DNA of 64,000 bases, from assembly GCF_017348835.2 (NCBI RefSeq), contig NZ_CP071375.1. One strand, 5' to 3'. Of the stretch, positions 48,301-54,300 are shown piece after piece. The position numbers were made by a program. Within the stretch, counting starts at the first letter, position 1; the number at the start of each line of letters is the position of its first letter. The DNA comes from Escherichia coli (GTDB lineage: Bacteria > Pseudomonadota > Gammaproteobacteria > Enterobacterales > Enterobacteriaceae).

Positions 48301-51300
48301 GCAAGAGCTTCAAAACGGTCCCCGAGTATCACTAAAATATCCGGCTTTAATCTGTTCAGGGCATCAGCAAAACCCAATATCCCCAGCCCCATGCTTTTTG
48401 CAGTCCCTACTGCCGTATCCGAAGAAAGCAATATATCAATCTTCTCATCAATTGAAAAACCGTCTTTCTCAATCTGCTGCCAGGTATTTCCAAACTCGGG
48501 CGAGAGATGCATACCACTAACGAGAAGCTGAAGTTCCAGCTCTTTGTCATCCTGGATATCTTTCAACAGCCAGTAGAGCAAGCCATATTCAGCTCGCGTG
48601 CCGGTAAATACCGCAACTTTACGTTTTGCTGACCCCATTACCATTACTCCATTGGAGAGCTAGGTATGTTGATCAGGCGAGCTTCAATCTGTTCAGAGTT
48701 CTTGAGATCATCACGCATTGCATGTTCAAACATTGGCAGACGGTGCATCAATTTCCAGATTGGGCGAACCATTACTTTGGCTTCATTCATTTGTACCAGC
48801 ATTGCATCACGGGCATCCATGTTTTCACAAATGATGGCATTCAGCCAGAAGTTTGACTGAGCATATTCAGGTTCTTTCACGAACCTGAACTCTGACCCGG
48901 CAAAAAATGCCTCATAGCGCTGAGCCAACTCACGTTTTTGTTTCAGGAACGAATCAAGGCGTTCCATCTGCCCACACCCAAGCGCAGCGTTGAGGTTTGG
49001 CATACGATAGTTGAAACCTGGTTCATCATGATAAAACTCGTAGGGATGCGGTACTTTTGCTGTCGTAGTGACATGTTTCGCACGAACACCCGCTTCTGAC
49101 GAGCGACAGAGGACCATTCCGCCACCACCGGTCGTAATAATTTTATTGCCGTTAAAGCTTAACGCTCCATAGTCACCGAGCGTACCGGTGTGTTTACCCT
49201 TGTAGAAAGAGCCCAGACTTTCAGCCGCATCTTCAACAAGAACGATGTGCCACTTCTGGCAAACGGTAATAAGCTCATCCAGCTCAACCGGATGACCAAA
49301 GGTATGCATAGGCACCACAGCACGTACAACCTGCCGTGTTTTACGGTGCACACATCCTTTTTCTGTCAGCTCGGTATTTTCAGATAACCAATTATCAAGT
49401 GCGACCGGGCACAGCCCCATACTCACCGGAGAGACATCGGTAAACACCGGCTCAGCTCCCAGATGATAAAGCGCATTGCAGGTTGCAATGAAGGTCAGTG
49501 CCTGAGTGATAACAAGATCACCTCGCTTAACACCTGCCAGGTATAACGCTGCGCTTAACGCGGCTGTTCCGTTAACCGTTGCAACCGCTCTCGCCGTTCC
49601 GGTGTAAGATTCCATTTTACGTTCGAAATCATCGACATATTTACCGACGCTCGACACGAAAGTACTGTCCAGAGTATCCAGAACATATTTTTTTTCGTTG
49701 CCATTAAACACTGGCGCATGCAAAGGAATAAATTCATCCGTTTTGTATACGTCGCGAACAAATTCGATAATTGATTTGATATTCATTCGGGGATGCCTTG
49801 CTTACATTTTGCTGTCGAGGTATTTACCTGTTTCTTTATGTCTGAAGTCAGGGATCATTTCAAAAAACAGTTTTACAATATCGTCTTTATTCCATTCCAG
49901 AGATGCTTTCATCTCTTCGATACGTTCTTCAAAGTGGGCCAGAAGCGCAGGGTCATATAAAGGTTCATTCTTGATAATGCCCAGATTGTTAAAACGCTCC
50001 ATATCAAGCGTTTCATTATCGGTGAAGAACTCCTCGAAATCTTTCTCACCTGTCGTATCACTTGAGGTAAACAAACATGGCCATTTACCTTGTGCTGGCA
50101 GGGTTTTAGCAAGCTCACGAGCTTCGTCTTCGGTTTCACAAAGATGAGGCTCATAACCACGTTGCTTAAGGTAGAGAACCGCAATATCGGCAAAAGAAAT
50201 GAGGTGTAATGCTTCACTCAGTTTCGGGAAGAAGATGTCACGATTATCACCAAAAATACATGACATCAGACAGAGCTCACCTGATTCCTGAGGGGTGACG
50301 AAATAACGCTTGATATCATTCGGTGCAACCAGGGGTTGCTGCTTGTGGAGGCGTTGATTGAACCCATGCAGAAGGGAGCCATCAGAAAAGGCTACGTTCG
50401 CGAAACGTGCAGTAGAGATGGCGATTTGTTCACTTTTACGCATCAGGAACATTTCCATAATACGCTTAGAAGCGCCCATCATATTTACCGGATTCGCGGC
50501 CTTGTCGGTCGATACGCAGAAGAATTTCTTAACGCCAGCAGCAATAGACTGCTCAATGGTTTTGTCAGTATTGAGAATATTGACTTCAATCATGCGCATC
50601 AGGGTAAACGGATCTTTCTCACTGCGAACATGTTTCAGGGCAGATAAATTCAGAACGTAATCATATTTACCGTCAGCTTTGATAAAAGCGTCGTATTCTA
50701 CAGAGCCGATATCAAGCGCGAACGTCTGGAAATCACCAGCAATATAACCGAAGGAACTGCGTATATCACGAACCAACTCAACCATGTTGTTTTCGCTAAT
50801 ATCGACAACATGCAGTTTCTGAGGATTGCGTTTAAATATTTCTTTTACAACAGCCTGACCAATAGAGCCAGCACCGCCAAGTACAAGGAAGCGTGATTCG
50901 GAAACGATTTTTTTTAATTCTTTTTCATTTTCAGAAACATCATCACTGAATAATTCTTTATTACGCCCAATCAATTGGAGGATATTATACATTTCGAGAT
51001 CCAGTTTGTTACTCATTATATTCAGGTCAAAACGGCTTCAGTCAAAAAAAATTTCGTGGCTGCAATCGTTTCATATATATTGACATTCTTAAAAAACCGG
51101 GGGAAACCTTCGGTTTTAATTAGCATCAAGCCAGAAAATTGATACGCTACCGCCCCTGGCTTAACAGCTACCAGTGCACTGCGAACTTTCATAGACGTGT
51201 TGAACTCTGCTTTCAGTCGCAAAGCCTCTAAACTCAAACACTAATTGTCTTACCATTCGGTGTCAGAAACAAGAAGAAATACTACAAAATCCAGTTCAAA

Positions 51301-54300
51301 ATTTTGTAGCTAACTCAATGAAAACAAACACCTTTCAGCAAAAACGGCAGAAACATTCTTTTCTTACCGGCATCACTGCCTCGAATGTTAACTGCTGTTT
51401 ATAGATTTTTAATCAATCAAACTGGCTAATTTGTGGTCTTACTCACTAAGCAATTTTTCAATGCTTTTCCGGAATTTCGGCCCTTCTTTCAGGTTACGCA
51501 ATCCGTACTTAACAAACGCCTGCATGTATCCCATTTTTTTACCGCAGTCGTAGCTGTCTCCAGTCATCAGCATGGCATCAACGGACTGTTTTTTCGCCAG
51601 TTCGGCAATGGCATCAGTCAGCTGAATACGTCCCCATGCACCTGGTTGAGTGCGTTCTAGTTCCGGCCAAATATCGGCAGAAAGCACATAGCGACCAACG
51701 GCCATGATGTCTGAGTCCAGCGTCTGCGGCTGATCCGGTTTTTCGATAAATTCGACGATGCGACTGACTTTACCTTCACGGTCCAGCGGCTCTTTGGTCT
51801 GGATGACCGAGTATTCAGAGAGGTCACCCGGCATACGTTTTGCCAGCACCTGACTGCGGCCCGTTTCATTGAAACGTGCAATCATGGCAGCAAGGTTGTA
51901 ACGCAGCGGGTCGGCGCTGGCGTCGTCGATCACAACGTCTGGCAGCACCACGACAAATGGATTGTCACCAATGGCAGGTCGTGCACATAAAATGGAGTGG
52001 CCCAAACCTAAAGGTTCGCCCTGACGCACGTTCATAATGGTCACGCCCGGCGGACAGATGGACTGCACTTCCGCAAGCAGTTGACGCTTTACGCGCTGTT
52101 CAAGGAGAGATTCTAATTCATAAGAGGTGTCGAAGTGGTTTTCGACCGCGTTCTTGGACGCGTGAGTTACCAGGAGGATTTCTTTGATCCCTGCAGCCAC
52201 AATCTCGTCAACAATGTACTGAATCATTGGCTTGTCGACGATCGGTAGCATCTCTTTGGGAATCGCCTTAGTGGCAGGCAACATATGCATCCCAAGACCC
52301 GCTACAGGAATAACTGCTTTTAAATTCGTCATTATTTCATCCACCTGTAAAATGGTTGCTGAATTATAGCTTGTTCGATTTTTTTCGCCAGCATCAATTA
52401 CCCTGAATTGATTACTGAATTACTTGTGATGTTACGCCGCTTCGTTGTGGATTGCAGTAGCATTGTTCCTAAGTATGGCTCCATTTTTCCAGGAATGGTC
52501 GCAAATCTACTCTCTCCGTTCCGGCAATCTAAAGTTAATCTTTTCCACATTAACAATATGGTGATTAATCCTGTCGATATCGACGGAGCTTTGCCCACTT
52601 TCATTCACCGCATGAACATTTGCAAGAGACAGCAGTGTTTCTTCTTTCGCCATAAAGACGCCTCGAACGTCTTTGCGCATGTCGAAGTTCATGCTCAATG
52701 CTGGTCCAACAGAGGATTCCTGCATCACTTTGATATTACGCATAAAAAGATGTTGCGGTTTGTTGTGAAGCTCCAGCGAGGCACGCTTCATCTCAATGTT
52801 AGTCAGTGCCACAAAGGAGACGGCATTCCCGGCGGAGATTTGGATGCCGCGCAATTTATAAGCAAGATGGGTGTTATCCAGTTGAATATTATTCACTCGG
52901 AAATTTTGCGGTATCGAGAGATATTTGCCTTTAATTACCCCATAGCCTATTAACATCCCGGCGCTATTAATCATTTCAATATTATCAATCACGAAATTGT
53001 CACAACCGTAAATAGCGACTGTCGCGTTATCAATGCCTGCTTTCTTACTGAAATCCGGCGTGATATTGCAGGCTTTGATATTACGAATAACAAAATGTTT
53101 ACCATTTTCAACATGGATCAACTGCCGACAATCCGATCCCGTGATATTCGCCACGACAAAGTTTTTCACTGCCTGGTCTTCCGGGTAGTTATTATCATAA
53201 GTACTCCCCGCAAGGCCTATGCCAATGCCCCAGTTGATTTTGCCGTTGGTACAGTTGATGCGCTCGATGACATGGTCGGAGATCAAAATATCACTGTCGT
53301 TAATCGCCACGTTCCATTCAATGGCGTCGCCCTGTAAGTCGCTGAACTTACAGTTGGTGATGTTGGCACCGATAATCTGGTTATGAAATCCCTGGCGCAA
53401 AATAGCGTAATTAGCGTGGTTAACGGTCAGGTTATCGATGGTCAGGTTGCGCATGACCCGTTTGTTTTTGCCGCCGATATAAATCTGCGTTACCGGGCCA
53501 AAGCCGCTCATCGCCAGCCCTTTGATGGTGCAGTCAGAACCACGCACATCCAGGGTGATGTTATGCATACTGCCGCCCTTCTCCCCTGTCACCTGGCTGC
53601 CGTCCTGTAAGACAAATCGCCCTCTGCCGTTGCCGCGCAGGCTTCCAAGGATGTGTAACGTTTTGCCGGGAGGGATGAAGATGCCGGTGTTGATATTGTC
53701 ACAAACGAATCCGGCAGGCACGACGACTGTTTGCCCTTCGCTGAAGGCTTGTTTAAATGAGGCGATCCAGTCGTGAGGGTTGTAGTCGTTAATGTTAACG
53801 CTTTGTCGGGCGGGAAGTGCGCGAGCGAAAGGGGTATGGAGGAAGGCAAGCGCCGAGCTTGCCGTCAGGAAGGTGCGTCGGGAGAGTGTTTTAAATGGCA
53901 TACGTTCTCCTCTATAAAGCCTGTAACAAGCTGGCGAGTTCTCGATTAATCACCTGCTGGTTAAAATCGTGTTCGACTTTTTCGCGCGCACGTTTGACAA
54001 CCGGAGCCAGTTCGTCAGTGTCCAGTTGGCTAAATGCCGCCAGACGTTGCGCCAGTGCGCGAGCATCGTTCTCAGGCACCAGCCAGCCGGATTTATCGGC
54101 CTCCACCAGTTCCGGTATTCCGCTATGCAGAGTAGAAACCACCGGAATGCCGACCGCCATCGCTTCCATCAGCGCTACCGGAATGCCTTCCATATCGCCA
54201 TCCGCGCCCGTTACCGATGGCAACAGGAAGACATCCGCGTCGTCGAGCATCGCTTTCACTTCATGGCTCGGTTTAAAGCCCGGCATCTCCACCACATCTT

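What the first reader, a model, noticed from the sequence alone, without database searches (positions are those of the whole stretch)
51017..51438. JUMPstart/ops upstream of the O-antigen cluster on the galF side
A 39-bp JUMPstart match with the ops motif GGCGGTAGCGT lies about 130 bp upstream of the first O-antigen gene. It indicates RfaH-dependent antitermination of the whole 19-kb operon and confirms transcription from galF toward gnd.
Basis: partly seen in the sequence, partly recalled or inferred. Interest (0 to 1): 0.3.

Follow-up and report, generated by a model that had tools for sequence, protein, structure and literature searches.

The report
JUMPstart/ops leader of O108 O-antigen operon
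This is the ordinary, well-known JUMPstart/ops control element in the untranslated leader of an E. coli O-antigen operon (here serogroup O108); it most likely loads the elongation factor RfaH onto RNA polymerase so that all 18 genes are transcribed.

Summary
A 39-nt JUMPstart lies on the minus strand at 51143-51181. It scores 59.2 bits against Rfam RF01707 (gathering score 35, E 4e-11). The quoted ops motif GGCGGTAGCGT is exact at 51144-51154. It sits 127 nt upstream of the ATG (51016) of the first of 18 co-oriented genes, which end at 32093. That is 18.9 kb, the E. coli O108 cluster, flanked by galF and gnd.

Strand and position fit an RfaH loading site in an untranslated leader. A promoter-like TTGTTT-17-GACAAT pair lies upstream and is invariant across divergent alleles. 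The first gene has no Shine-Dalgarno sequence. rfaH is present in 5425 of 5426 complete E. coli genomes.

One nuance: the twelfth ops base is A, not the consensus G that enters RNA polymerase's CRE pocket in the paused complex. A12 is a natural minority variant. The identical 12-mer, and the A12 site at kpsM, are RfaH-bound by ChIP-seq in strain CFT073, so it does not refute function.

The 5' half of JUMPstart is a covarying 5-bp hairpin. Two extra hairpins in this leader are allele-specific and unsupported by comparison.

Verdict: real, already known, low interest.

The parts
51143..51181 (-). 39-nt JUMPstart element (CAGTGCACTGGTAGCTGTTAAGCCAGGGGCGGTAGCGTA)
   Evidence: Matches Rfam RF01707 at 59.2 bits (gathering score 35), E 4.4e-11, model positions 1-38 of 38. 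Exact match to a degenerate E. coli consensus, with no matches in 100 shuffles.
51143..51154 (-). 12-nt ops site GGCGGTAGCGTA. The core GGCGGTAG is at 51154-51147, pause base T11 at 51144, and position 12 is A (51143) instead of the consensus G.
   Evidence: The 11-mer is exact and unique in the window. K-12 rfb has GGCGGTAGCGTG. The identical 12-mer is listed among RfaH-bound ops sites of CFT073 (c1882), and the A12 site at kpsM is bound in wild type.
51157..51174 (-). JUMPstart hairpin: 5' arm CUGGU (51174-51170), 9-nt loop, 3' arm GCCAG (51161-51157). Its base lies 12 nt upstream of ops U11.
   Evidence: Rfam consensus structure with all pairs standard. In 57 distinct JUMPstart sequences, 99.6% of cells are paired and the innermost pair takes four types: UG 37, AU 13, CG 6, GC 1.
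51244..51272 (-). Inferred sigma-70-type promoter: -35 TTGTTT (51272-51267), 17-nt spacer, -10 GACAAT (51249-51244). The predicted start is near 51237-51239, giving a leader of about 222 nt.
   Evidence: Both hexamers and the 17-nt spacing are invariant in seven E. coli alleles while the spacer sequence varies, and O121 has the -10 variant GATAAT. The pair is also present upstream of JUMPstart in E. albertii, Enterobacter cloacae and, with -35 TTGTAT, Superficieibacter. The simple consensus scan did not call it, because the -35 matches only 3 of 6. No start site has been mapped here.
51340..51400 (-). Terminator-like hairpin with a U-run downstream of galF
   Evidence: dG -18.8 kcal/mol, z -2.0. 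The K-12 counterpart has dG -33.6, z -9.4. The arms (A)ACNGCAG and CTGCCGTT are conserved across alleles. A terminator function is inferred.
51017..51142 (-). 3' part of the leader, specific to the O108/leg-module allele, with no Shine-Dalgarno sequence before the ATG
   Evidence: The full-length intergenic allele is found in only 9 of 5426 genomes. It does not align with K-12, O128 or O165 downstream of ops. No sub-word of AGGAGG of 4 nt or more occurs in the 20 nt before the ATG.
51122..51171 (-). Allele-specific predicted hairpin with ops in its loop (AGCUGUUAAGCCAG / CUGGCUUGAUGCU). It is mutually exclusive with the Rfam hairpin.
   Evidence: dG -20.2 kcal/mol, z -2.34, with 3 of 200 shuffles folding as well. 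It is not predicted in the K-12, O154, O121 or O165 alleles, so it has no comparative support.
51087..51117 (-). Weak U-tract hairpin (AAAACCG...CGGUUUU then UU), terminator-like
   Evidence: dG -7.4 kcal/mol, z -1.3, with 23 of 200 shuffles folding as well. The terminator scan did not call it. It is speculative.
32093..51016 (-). O108 O-antigen operon: 18 co-oriented genes (8-epilegionaminic acid module, putative GT, wzx, wzy, GT, fnlA/wbjC/wecB, GT4, wbuC)
   Evidence: PGAP annotation of strain PE164, which differs from the window at 2 of 32,984 bases. Gaps between genes are at most 85 nt. Terminator-like sites are not enriched: 19 found against 14.4 +/- 3.7 expected. Iguchi 2015 describes O108 as the longest E. 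coli cluster, 19.5 kb with 18 genes.
51439..52332 (-). galF, the upstream flanking gene
   Evidence: NCBIfam TIGR01105 galF at 687 bits, above the cut-off of 659; PGAP annotation agrees.

Best explanation
The region is the promoter and untranslated leader of the E. coli O108 O-antigen operon, and it carries a functional JUMPstart/ops element. Transcription most likely starts near 51238 on the minus strand, from a conserved TTGTTT-17-GACAAT promoter that lies downstream of a galF terminator-like hairpin (inferred). About 85-95 nt into the transcript, RNA polymerase reaches ops. Established RfaH biology then applies. The non-template strand GGCGGTAGCGT forms a small DNA hairpin (C3:G8 pair, G5 and T6 exposed), polymerase pauses at U11, and RfaH binds, refolds and stays with polymerase. 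RfaH excludes NusG, which suppresses Rho-dependent termination and H-NS-linked blocks. It also recruits a ribosome to the first gene, which has no Shine-Dalgarno sequence. The expected result is full-length expression of the 18.9-kb, AT-rich, 18-gene operon. Shown here: the element, its exact sequence and strand, its position, the conserved promoter motif, the operon layout, and the near-universal presence of rfaH in E. coli. Inferred: promoter use, pausing, RfaH loading and antitermination at this particular locus.
For: The Rfam JUMPstart match is full length at 59.2 bits against 35. The ops 11-mer is exact and unique, with 0.03 expected by chance. The RfaH-contact bases G4, G5, T6, A7, G8 and the C3:G8 pair are all present; Zuber 2018 identifies these as required for recruitment. 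The element lies on the coding strand, 127 nt before the first ATG and 88-89 nt after the end of a -10 hexamer conserved across alleles and genera. The layout matches K-12 rfb. It also matches the CFT073 O-antigen unit, where RfaH ChIP signal starts at the single leader ops and persists through the unit. The identical 12-mer GGCGGTAGCGTA (c1882) and the A12 variant at kpsM are listed as RfaH-bound in CFT073. The first gene has no Shine-Dalgarno sequence, a feature reported for the waaQ and rfb operons. The 18 genes share one strand with gaps of at most 85 nt, and terminator-like sites are not enriched. GC content falls to 33-37% in the middle of the operon, which fits the H-NS-bound loci that RfaH targets. 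rfaH is present in 5425 of 5426 complete E. coli genomes.
Against: Nothing here measures transcription, pausing or RfaH binding at this locus. Position 12 is A, whereas Zuber 2018 notes that the validated E. coli targets they list share T11-G12. G12 sits in the CRE pocket of the ops-paused complex, and G12C abolishes the U11 pause in vitro, although RfaH is still recruited. G12A itself was not tested in the papers read. The c1882 site with the identical 12-mer was bound only in the hns stpA double mutant. The promoter is inferred from conservation only. The RNA-seq-predicted start of the CFT073 unit is 67 nt upstream of ops, about 18 nt short of the position implied by the conserved -10. rfaH is not in the window.
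Confidence: 0.88

Rival explanations
1. The element is a weakened ops. The G12A change reduces or removes the U11 pause, so RfaH loads inefficiently. Expression of the distal genes of this very long operon would then be lower, or more condition-dependent, than in G12 serogroups.
For: G12 is inserted into the G-specific CRE pocket in the ops-paused complex. G12C eliminates the U11 pause in vitro, and every ops substitution except G2C lowered RfaH stimulation in vivo. G12 dominates in nature: 24 of 28 clear JUMPstart hits in the species-level scan after two chance matches are set aside. In a 60-row sample of E. coli genomes, the three non-self hits checked that have A12 are O3, O165 and an 'O8 family' cluster.
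Against: RfaH was still recruited on G12C templates. A12 sites are RfaH-bound in CFT073: kpsM in wild type, and c1882, which has the identical 12-mer, in the hns stpA mutant. A12 recurs in independent functional contexts: the O165, O3 and 'O8 family' clusters, the kps region-3 leader and Citrobacter. That pattern argues for a tolerated variant rather than decay. A is a purine, unlike the C that was tested.
Confidence: 0.2
2. JUMPstart also acts at the RNA level. The conserved hairpin just upstream of ops, or in this allele the longer ops-in-loop hairpin and the U-tract hairpin, may form in the nascent transcript. There it could act as a pause-stabilising or attenuator structure, in addition to or instead of the DNA-level ops signal.
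For: Rfam classifies JUMPstart as a cis-regulatory RNA with a hairpin. The hairpin covaries: 99.6% of cells are paired and the innermost pair takes four types. Its base lies 12 nt from U11. I recall from general knowledge of hairpin-dependent pauses, not from a test here, that this spacing suits a pause hairpin. The O108 allele has an extra -20 kcal/mol hairpin with z -2.3 and a U-tract hairpin downstream.
Against: ops function is explained by non-template DNA contacts, and the pause does not need the central bases. Covariation cannot separate RNA from single-stranded DNA. The sample was ascertained with a pattern that fixes 3 of the 5 bases of the 3' arm. The allele-specific hairpins are absent from other alleles. 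The leader as a whole folds no better than shuffles, z -0.16. The U-tract hairpin is weak, z -1.3, and the terminator scan did not call it.
Confidence: 0.15
3. The match is a chance occurrence or a non-functional relic carried along with the galF flank.
For: With one mismatch allowed, the 11-mer alone is not rare: 0.5 expected per window. ops-like 8-mers also occur inside coding DNA at 63046 and 12126.
Against: The full 39-nt match has E 4e-11, and no shuffle matches. The element is conserved in more than 4500 E. coli genomes at this position, even though the flanking leader diverges to 71-78% identity. The hairpin covaries.
Confidence: 0.01

Closest known systems
E. coli K-12 rfb (galF-rfbB) JUMPstart/ops leader
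   Same: Same genomic position between galF and the first O-antigen gene. Same TTGTTT-17-GACAAT motif at almost the same distance from ops (89 against 91 nt after the -10 hexamer). The 39-nt element is identical at 36 of 39 positions, with an identical ops 11-mer.
   Different: K-12 has G at ops position 12 and a shorter ops-to-ATG segment (75 nt against 126 nt after the 12-mer). Outside JUMPstart the leader is only about 72-78% identical, and downstream of ops it is unrelated.
CFT073 RfaH-bound ops sites (Hustmyer et al., mBio 2022, Data set S2A)
   Same: The O-antigen unit has a single ops in the 5' leader, with RfaH tracking through the unit. The c1882 ops is the identical 12-mer GGCGGTAGCGTA, and the kpsM ops also has A12.
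   Different: They lie in a different strain and different operons. c1882 was bound only when hns and stpA were deleted. The CFT073 O-antigen ops itself has G12.
Rfam RF01707 JUMPstart RNA motif
   Same: Full-length match to the model, including the 5-bp hairpin and the unpaired ops tail.
   Different: There is one extra loop base relative to the model, and A replaces the consensus G at the last position.
E. coli O7 wb* promoter region (Marolda and Valvano, J Bacteriol 1998)
   Same: As I recall the abstract, it reports typical -10 and -35 sequences between galF and rmlB and an untranslated leader of 173 nt that holds JUMPstart/ops in predicted stem-loops. That length fits the 178 nt from the -10 hexamer to the ATG in the K-12-type allele.
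   Different: I could not retrieve the paper, so this comparison rests on memory and is a lead only. The O108 leader would be about 222 nt.
Leader of the leg-module sibling cluster in strain ECZP248
   Same: The intergenic region is 96.8% identical, with identical JUMPstart, A12 ops and downstream hairpins. It has the same legionaminic-type and fnl gene modules.
   Different: The central wzx, wzy and glycosyltransferase genes differ and carry no PGAP O-family name. There is a 10-nt length difference, and the oxidoreductase gene is split.

Membership tests
JUMPstart element (Rfam RF01707) | Sequence and structure match to the 38-position covariance model at or above the gathering score of 35 bits | tested here: met
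   59.2 bits, model positions 1-38 of 38, E 4.4e-11 over the window
JUMPstart element (Rfam RF01707) | 5-bp hairpin immediately upstream of ops, with standard pairs | tested here: met
   The pairs are C-G, U-A, G-C, G-C and U-G, and none is flagged as non-standard. The family-wide hairpin covaries in 57 sequences.
ops (operon polarity suppressor) RfaH-loading site | 8-nt core GGCGGTAG on the non-template (coding) strand of the transcription unit | tested here: met
   Exact at 51154-51147 on the minus strand, the same strand as all 18 genes. The 8-nt definition is given.
ops (operon polarity suppressor) RfaH-loading site | Bases needed for the non-template hairpin and RfaH contacts: C3:G8 pair, G4, G5, T6, A7 | tested here: met
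   All are present in GGCGGTAGCGTA. Their requirement is taken from Zuber 2018.
ops (operon polarity suppressor) RfaH-loading site | Pause dinucleotide T11-G12. This is a consensus feature of the 12-nt ops, not part of the 8-nt definition. | tested here: not met
   T11 is present but position 12 is A. Natural A12 sites are RfaH-bound in CFT073, so I treat this as a tolerated departure from consensus and not as a failed defining feature.
ops (operon polarity suppressor) RfaH-loading site | Location in an untranslated 5' leader, downstream of the promoter and upstream of the first gene of a long operon | tested here: met
   127 nt upstream of the first ATG. It lies 88-89 nt downstream of a conserved -10 hexamer and outside any annotated gene. 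Promoter use is inferred, not mapped.
RfaH regulon | The host genome encodes RfaH | not testable with these tools
   rfaH is not in the window. It is present in 5425 of 5426 complete E. coli genomes, but the host of this window was not checked individually.
RfaH regulon | RfaH occupancy downstream of ops, and rfaH-dependent expression of distal genes | not testable with these tools
   This needs ChIP, RNA measurements or an LPS phenotype in an rfaH mutant of an O108 strain.
E. coli O108 O-antigen gene cluster | O108-type wzx and wzy, the 8-epilegionaminic acid and L-FucNAc gene modules, and 18 genes between galF and gnd | tested here: met
   The window differs at 2 of 32,984 bases from strain PE164, whose wzx and wzy PGAP names 'O108 family'. 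The size and gene count match Iguchi 2015. The sugar content is taken from Liu 2020.

The most novel reading that the evidence does not exclude
The A12 form of ops (GGCGGTAGCGTA) may be a functionally distinct class with a weaker pause. In the O108/leg-module leader it is combined with an allele-specific hairpin that holds ops in its loop and with a downstream U-tract hairpin. Together these could tune, or make conditional, the loading of RfaH onto the longest E. coli O-antigen operon.
Probability: 0.08. Interest if true: 0.35.

Novelty: already known. Interest (0 to 1): 0.1.

Why it matters
The finding has little significance beyond correct annotation. It fixes the strand, the likely promoter and the RfaH loading site of the O108 O-antigen operon, and it shows that the cluster is organised like every other galF-side O-antigen cluster. 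The one point of modest interest concerns position 12. The structural and mutational papers read here treat it as G, and it occupies RNA polymerase's CRE pocket in the paused complex. Yet it is naturally A in this and several other polysaccharide leaders, including sites that bind RfaH in vivo. A direct test of G12A would show how much of the ops pause is really needed for RfaH loading.

Tried and rejected
(1) The simple sigma-70 scan of 50900-51600 found only two sites, both at the first gene's start codon, and no terminator. It missed the conserved TTGTTT-17-GACAAT pair because the -35 matches only 3 of 6, so I found the promoter by alignment instead.

(2) Folding the 184-nt leader as a whole gave z -0.16, so there is no evidence of unusual overall structure. 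The ops-in-loop hairpin (z -2.3) and the U-tract hairpin (z -1.3) are not conserved in other alleles. I rejected them as supported features and kept them as speculation.

(3) I tried to retrieve Marolda and Valvano 1998 by DOI and by a guessed PMC id, and both failed. Two literature searches for a mapped rfb start site returned noise or nothing useful, and one search was rejected for syntax.

I used it only after filtering for JUMPstart context.

(5) Using BLAST end coordinates to count A12 against G12 proved unreliable, because blastn extends through the mismatch. For example, O128 and O100 reach past position 158 yet have G12. The frequency of A12 in E. coli is therefore only a rough minority estimate.

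(6) I rejected the chance-match reading.

(7) I considered the 71-codon TTG ORF at 51022-51237, which overlaps the leader, and dismissed it. It has no annotation in the near-identical genome and spans the conserved non-coding element.

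
Full report
**Observation**

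The quoted motif GGCGGTAGCGT occurs once in the 64-kb window, exactly, at 51144-51154 on the minus strand. About 0.03 exact matches are expected by chance, and 3 of 100 shuffles gave one. With one mismatch allowed the motif is not rare, at 0.5 expected, so the 11-mer alone is weak evidence.

The complete 39-nt element is what makes the case. CAGTGCACTGGTAGCTGTTAAGCCAGGGGCGGTAGCGTA lies at 51143-51181 (-). It matches Rfam RF01707 (JUMPstart) over the whole model at 59.2 bits against a gathering score of 35, with E 4.4e-11 for the window. It also matches a degenerate E. coli consensus with no mismatch, and none of 100 shuffles matched. It is the only JUMPstart in the window.

There are 127 nt between the 11-mer and that ATG.

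**Context**

The window differs at only 2 of 32,984 compared bases from E. coli strain PE164. PGAP names that strain's wzx and wzy 'O108 family'. Downstream of the leader lie 18 genes on the minus strand, from 51016 to 32093 (18,924 bp):

- a nine-gene legionaminic-type module (dehydratase, LegC aminotransferase, neuC, neuB, acetyltransferase, nucleotidyltransferase, Gfo/Idh/MocA oxidoreductase, cytidylyltransferase, oxidoreductase)
- a 529-aa protein with no family match
- wzx, wzy and a glycosyltransferase
- fnlA, wbjC and wecB
- a GT4 glycosyltransferase and wbuC

After them come gnd, ugd and wzz.

Gaps between the genes are at most 85 nt, and several genes overlap. Terminator-like sites in the operon are no more frequent than in shuffles, 19 against 14.4 +/- 3.7, and none falls in a gap. 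GC content drops to 33-37% in the middle of the cluster.

The literature agrees. O108 is reported as the longest E. coli O-antigen cluster, 19.5 kb with 18 genes (Iguchi 2015). Its O unit contains 8-epilegionaminic acid (Liu 2020, citing Perepelov 2010).

**Anatomy of the intergenic region (5' to 3' on the minus strand)**

1. A hairpin followed by a U-run lies just after galF at 51400-51340, with dG -18.8 kcal/mol and z -2.0. Its K-12 counterpart is much stronger (dG -33.6, z -9.4), and the arms are conserved. I read it as the galF terminator. This is an inference.

2. TTGTTT (51272-51267), a 17-nt spacer and GACAAT (51249-51244) follow. Both hexamers and the spacing are invariant in seven E. 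coli leader alleles, while the spacer and flanks vary. O121 has the -10 variant GATAAT. The pair also occurs upstream of JUMPstart in E. albertii, Enterobacter cloacae and, with -35 TTGTAT, Superficieibacter. I take this to be the operon's promoter. The consensus scan missed it because the -35 matches only 3 of 6.
   - In the K-12-type allele the -10 ends 178 nt before the ATG. That fits my recollection of a 173-nt leader mapped for O7 by Marolda and Valvano in 1998, a paper I could not retrieve. That point rests on memory only.
   - In CFT073 the RNA-seq-predicted start of the unit is 67 nt upstream of ops. This is about 18 nt short of my prediction, and it comes from a low-resolution method.

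3. JUMPstart follows, with ops beginning 90 nt after the -10 hexamer.

4. A 126-nt segment runs from ops to the ATG and is specific to this allele. The whole intergenic allele occurs in only 9 of 5426 complete E. coli genomes. Five of these are near-identical O108-type genomes. Four carry a sibling cluster with the same leg and fnl modules but different central genes.

5. There is no Shine-Dalgarno sequence before the ATG.

By contrast, the stretch from the promoter to ops is recognisable in 4522 of 5426 genomes at 71-78% identity, with JUMPstart as its most conserved core.

**The ops site in detail**

The 8-nt core GGCGGTAG, which defines ops, and the 11-mer are exact. All the bases that Zuber et al. 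found necessary for RfaH recruitment are present: G4, G5, A7 and G8 essential, C3 and T6 important, with C3:G8 forming the non-template hairpin.

The twelfth base is A, where K-12 rfb and the Rfam consensus have G. This is not trivial:

- Zuber et al. note that the validated E. coli targets they list share T11-G12.
- G12C abolished the U11 pause in vitro, although RfaH was still recruited.

I therefore asked whether A12 is natural and whether it is functional.

In a species-level scan, clear JUMPstart hits had G12 in 24 cases, A12 in 3 and T12 in 1. The three A12 hits were this window's near-identical twin (strain PE164) and two loci of one Citrobacter. Two further hits with C were chance matches.

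Among E. coli loci that I fetched:

- A12 occurs in O108, its sibling cluster, O165, O3, an 'O8 family' galF-side cluster, the O8/O9-type man-cluster leader, and a kps region-3 capsule leader.
- G12 occurs in O16 (K-12), O128, O100, O121, O15 and O154.

Decisively, Data set S2A of Hustmyer et al. 2022 lists the ops sequences of the eight RfaH-bound loci of CFT073. The kpsM site is GGCGGTAGCATA and is bound in wild type. The c1882 site is GGCGGTAGCGTA, identical to the window's 12-mer, and is bound in the hns stpA mutant. Whether A12 weakens the pause remains untested.

**The rest of JUMPstart**

The 5' half forms the 5-bp hairpin of the Rfam model: CUGGU, a 9-nt loop, then GCCAG. I aligned 57 distinct JUMPstart sequences from several genera. 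In that set, 99.6% of cells are paired, against 91.9% in shuffles and at most 62.5% with slid partners. The innermost pair takes four types: UG 37, AU 13, CG 6 and GC 1.

Two caveats apply. The search pattern fixed three bases of the 3' arm, and the sequences are related to one another.

The hairpin base lies 12 nt upstream of U11. This spacing would suit a nascent-RNA pause hairpin, but covariation cannot distinguish RNA from single-stranded DNA. The role of this half remains inferred.

Two further hairpins are predicted in the O108 leader. One is a -20.2 kcal/mol stem that places ops in its loop (z -2.3). The other is a weak U-tract hairpin (z -1.3). Neither is found in other alleles, and the leader as a whole folds no better than shuffles. 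I do not count them as established features.

**Mechanism**

The best explanation is the standard one, at confidence about 0.88. RNA polymerase initiates at the conserved promoter, transcribes about 85-95 nt and exposes ops on the non-template strand. It pauses there, RfaH loads and then travels with polymerase. RfaH excludes NusG and so suppresses Rho-dependent termination and H-NS-linked blocks. It also recruits a ribosome to the first gene, which has no Shine-Dalgarno sequence (mechanism).

Several local features fit this model: the orientation, the leader position, the absence of a Shine-Dalgarno sequence, the long AT-rich operon, and rfaH in 5425 of 5426 E. coli genomes. None of the dynamic steps is shown for this locus.

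The rivals are:

- a weakened ops because of A12 (about 0.2, and not exclusive with the main model)
- an additional RNA-level role for the hairpins (about 0.15)
- a chance match or relic (about 0.01)

**Comparison, novelty and verdict**

The element is a member of the JUMPstart family and an ops site by every sequence criterion that could be tested. The one departure is consensus position 12. RfaH occupancy and dependence cannot be tested with these tools.

JUMPstart upstream of galF-side O-antigen clusters is textbook knowledge, and the O108 cluster itself is published. The finding is therefore already known and of low interest (0.1).

Noticed in passing
window 61182-61231 (-): Rfam algC RNA motif (RF02929, 77.3 bits against a gathering score of 33.8) lies upstream of cpsG inside the colanic acid cluster.
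   Followed up: no
window 56529-56791 (+): Three tandem matches to naRNA4 (RF02564, REP/BIME-type repeats) lie in the gap between wzxC and wcaK.
   Followed up: no
window 20732-20855 (+) and 18360-18434 (-): The histidine operon leader (131.6 bits) and the sRNA STnc240 (68.2 bits) were found. They place the his operon on the gnd side of the cluster, as expected.
   Followed up: no
window 63039-63046 (-) and 12119-12126 (-): Two further copies of the ops core GGCGGTAG lie inside coding DNA (one in wcaI). Neither has JUMPstart context or T11. [quoted passage not shown]
   Followed up: partly
L128 (NZ_CP034784.1, strain ECZP248) 20001-37908: A sibling cluster shares the O108 leader (96.8% identity), leg module and fnl module. 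Its central wzx, wzy and glycosyltransferase genes differ and have no PGAP O-family name, and its oxidoreductase gene is split. It may be a recombinant or unassigned O type.
   Followed up: partly
L124 14137-15523 (O3) and L131 14137-15641 (O15): In both serogroups the ops 12-mer is followed directly by TCTAGGGG and then by ISAs1-family transposase genes. An ISAs1 element therefore seems to sit directly downstream of ops, between it and the O-antigen genes.
   Followed up: no
L125 (NZ_CP060933.1, strain EC12) 2901-25297: This locus holds two tandem galF-JUMPstart-rfbBDAC units, each with its own ops. The first is an O154-type partial cluster ending at an IS1, and the second is a complete O100 cluster. 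The first ops reads GGCGGTAGCATG.
   Followed up: no
window 51143-51300 (-) compared with L129, L125, L016, L012 and L089: The O108 promoter-to-ops allele is closest to the O121 allele (86.7% identity). Its JUMPstart is identical to those of Enterobacter cloacae and Superficieibacter rather than to the common E. coli K-12-type allele. This suggests the leader was imported together with the cluster.
   Followed up: partly
window 31979-32092 (-): No terminator-like site was found in the 114-nt gap between wbuC and gnd, so read-through from the O-antigen operon into gnd is possible.
   Followed up: no
window 40583-42172 (-): The 529-aa protein between the leg module and wzx matches no NCBIfam family and is annotated as hypothetical. 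The Liu 2020 review notes that O108 has one glycosyltransferase fewer than expected, so this could be the missing 8-epilegionaminic acid transferase.
   Followed up: no
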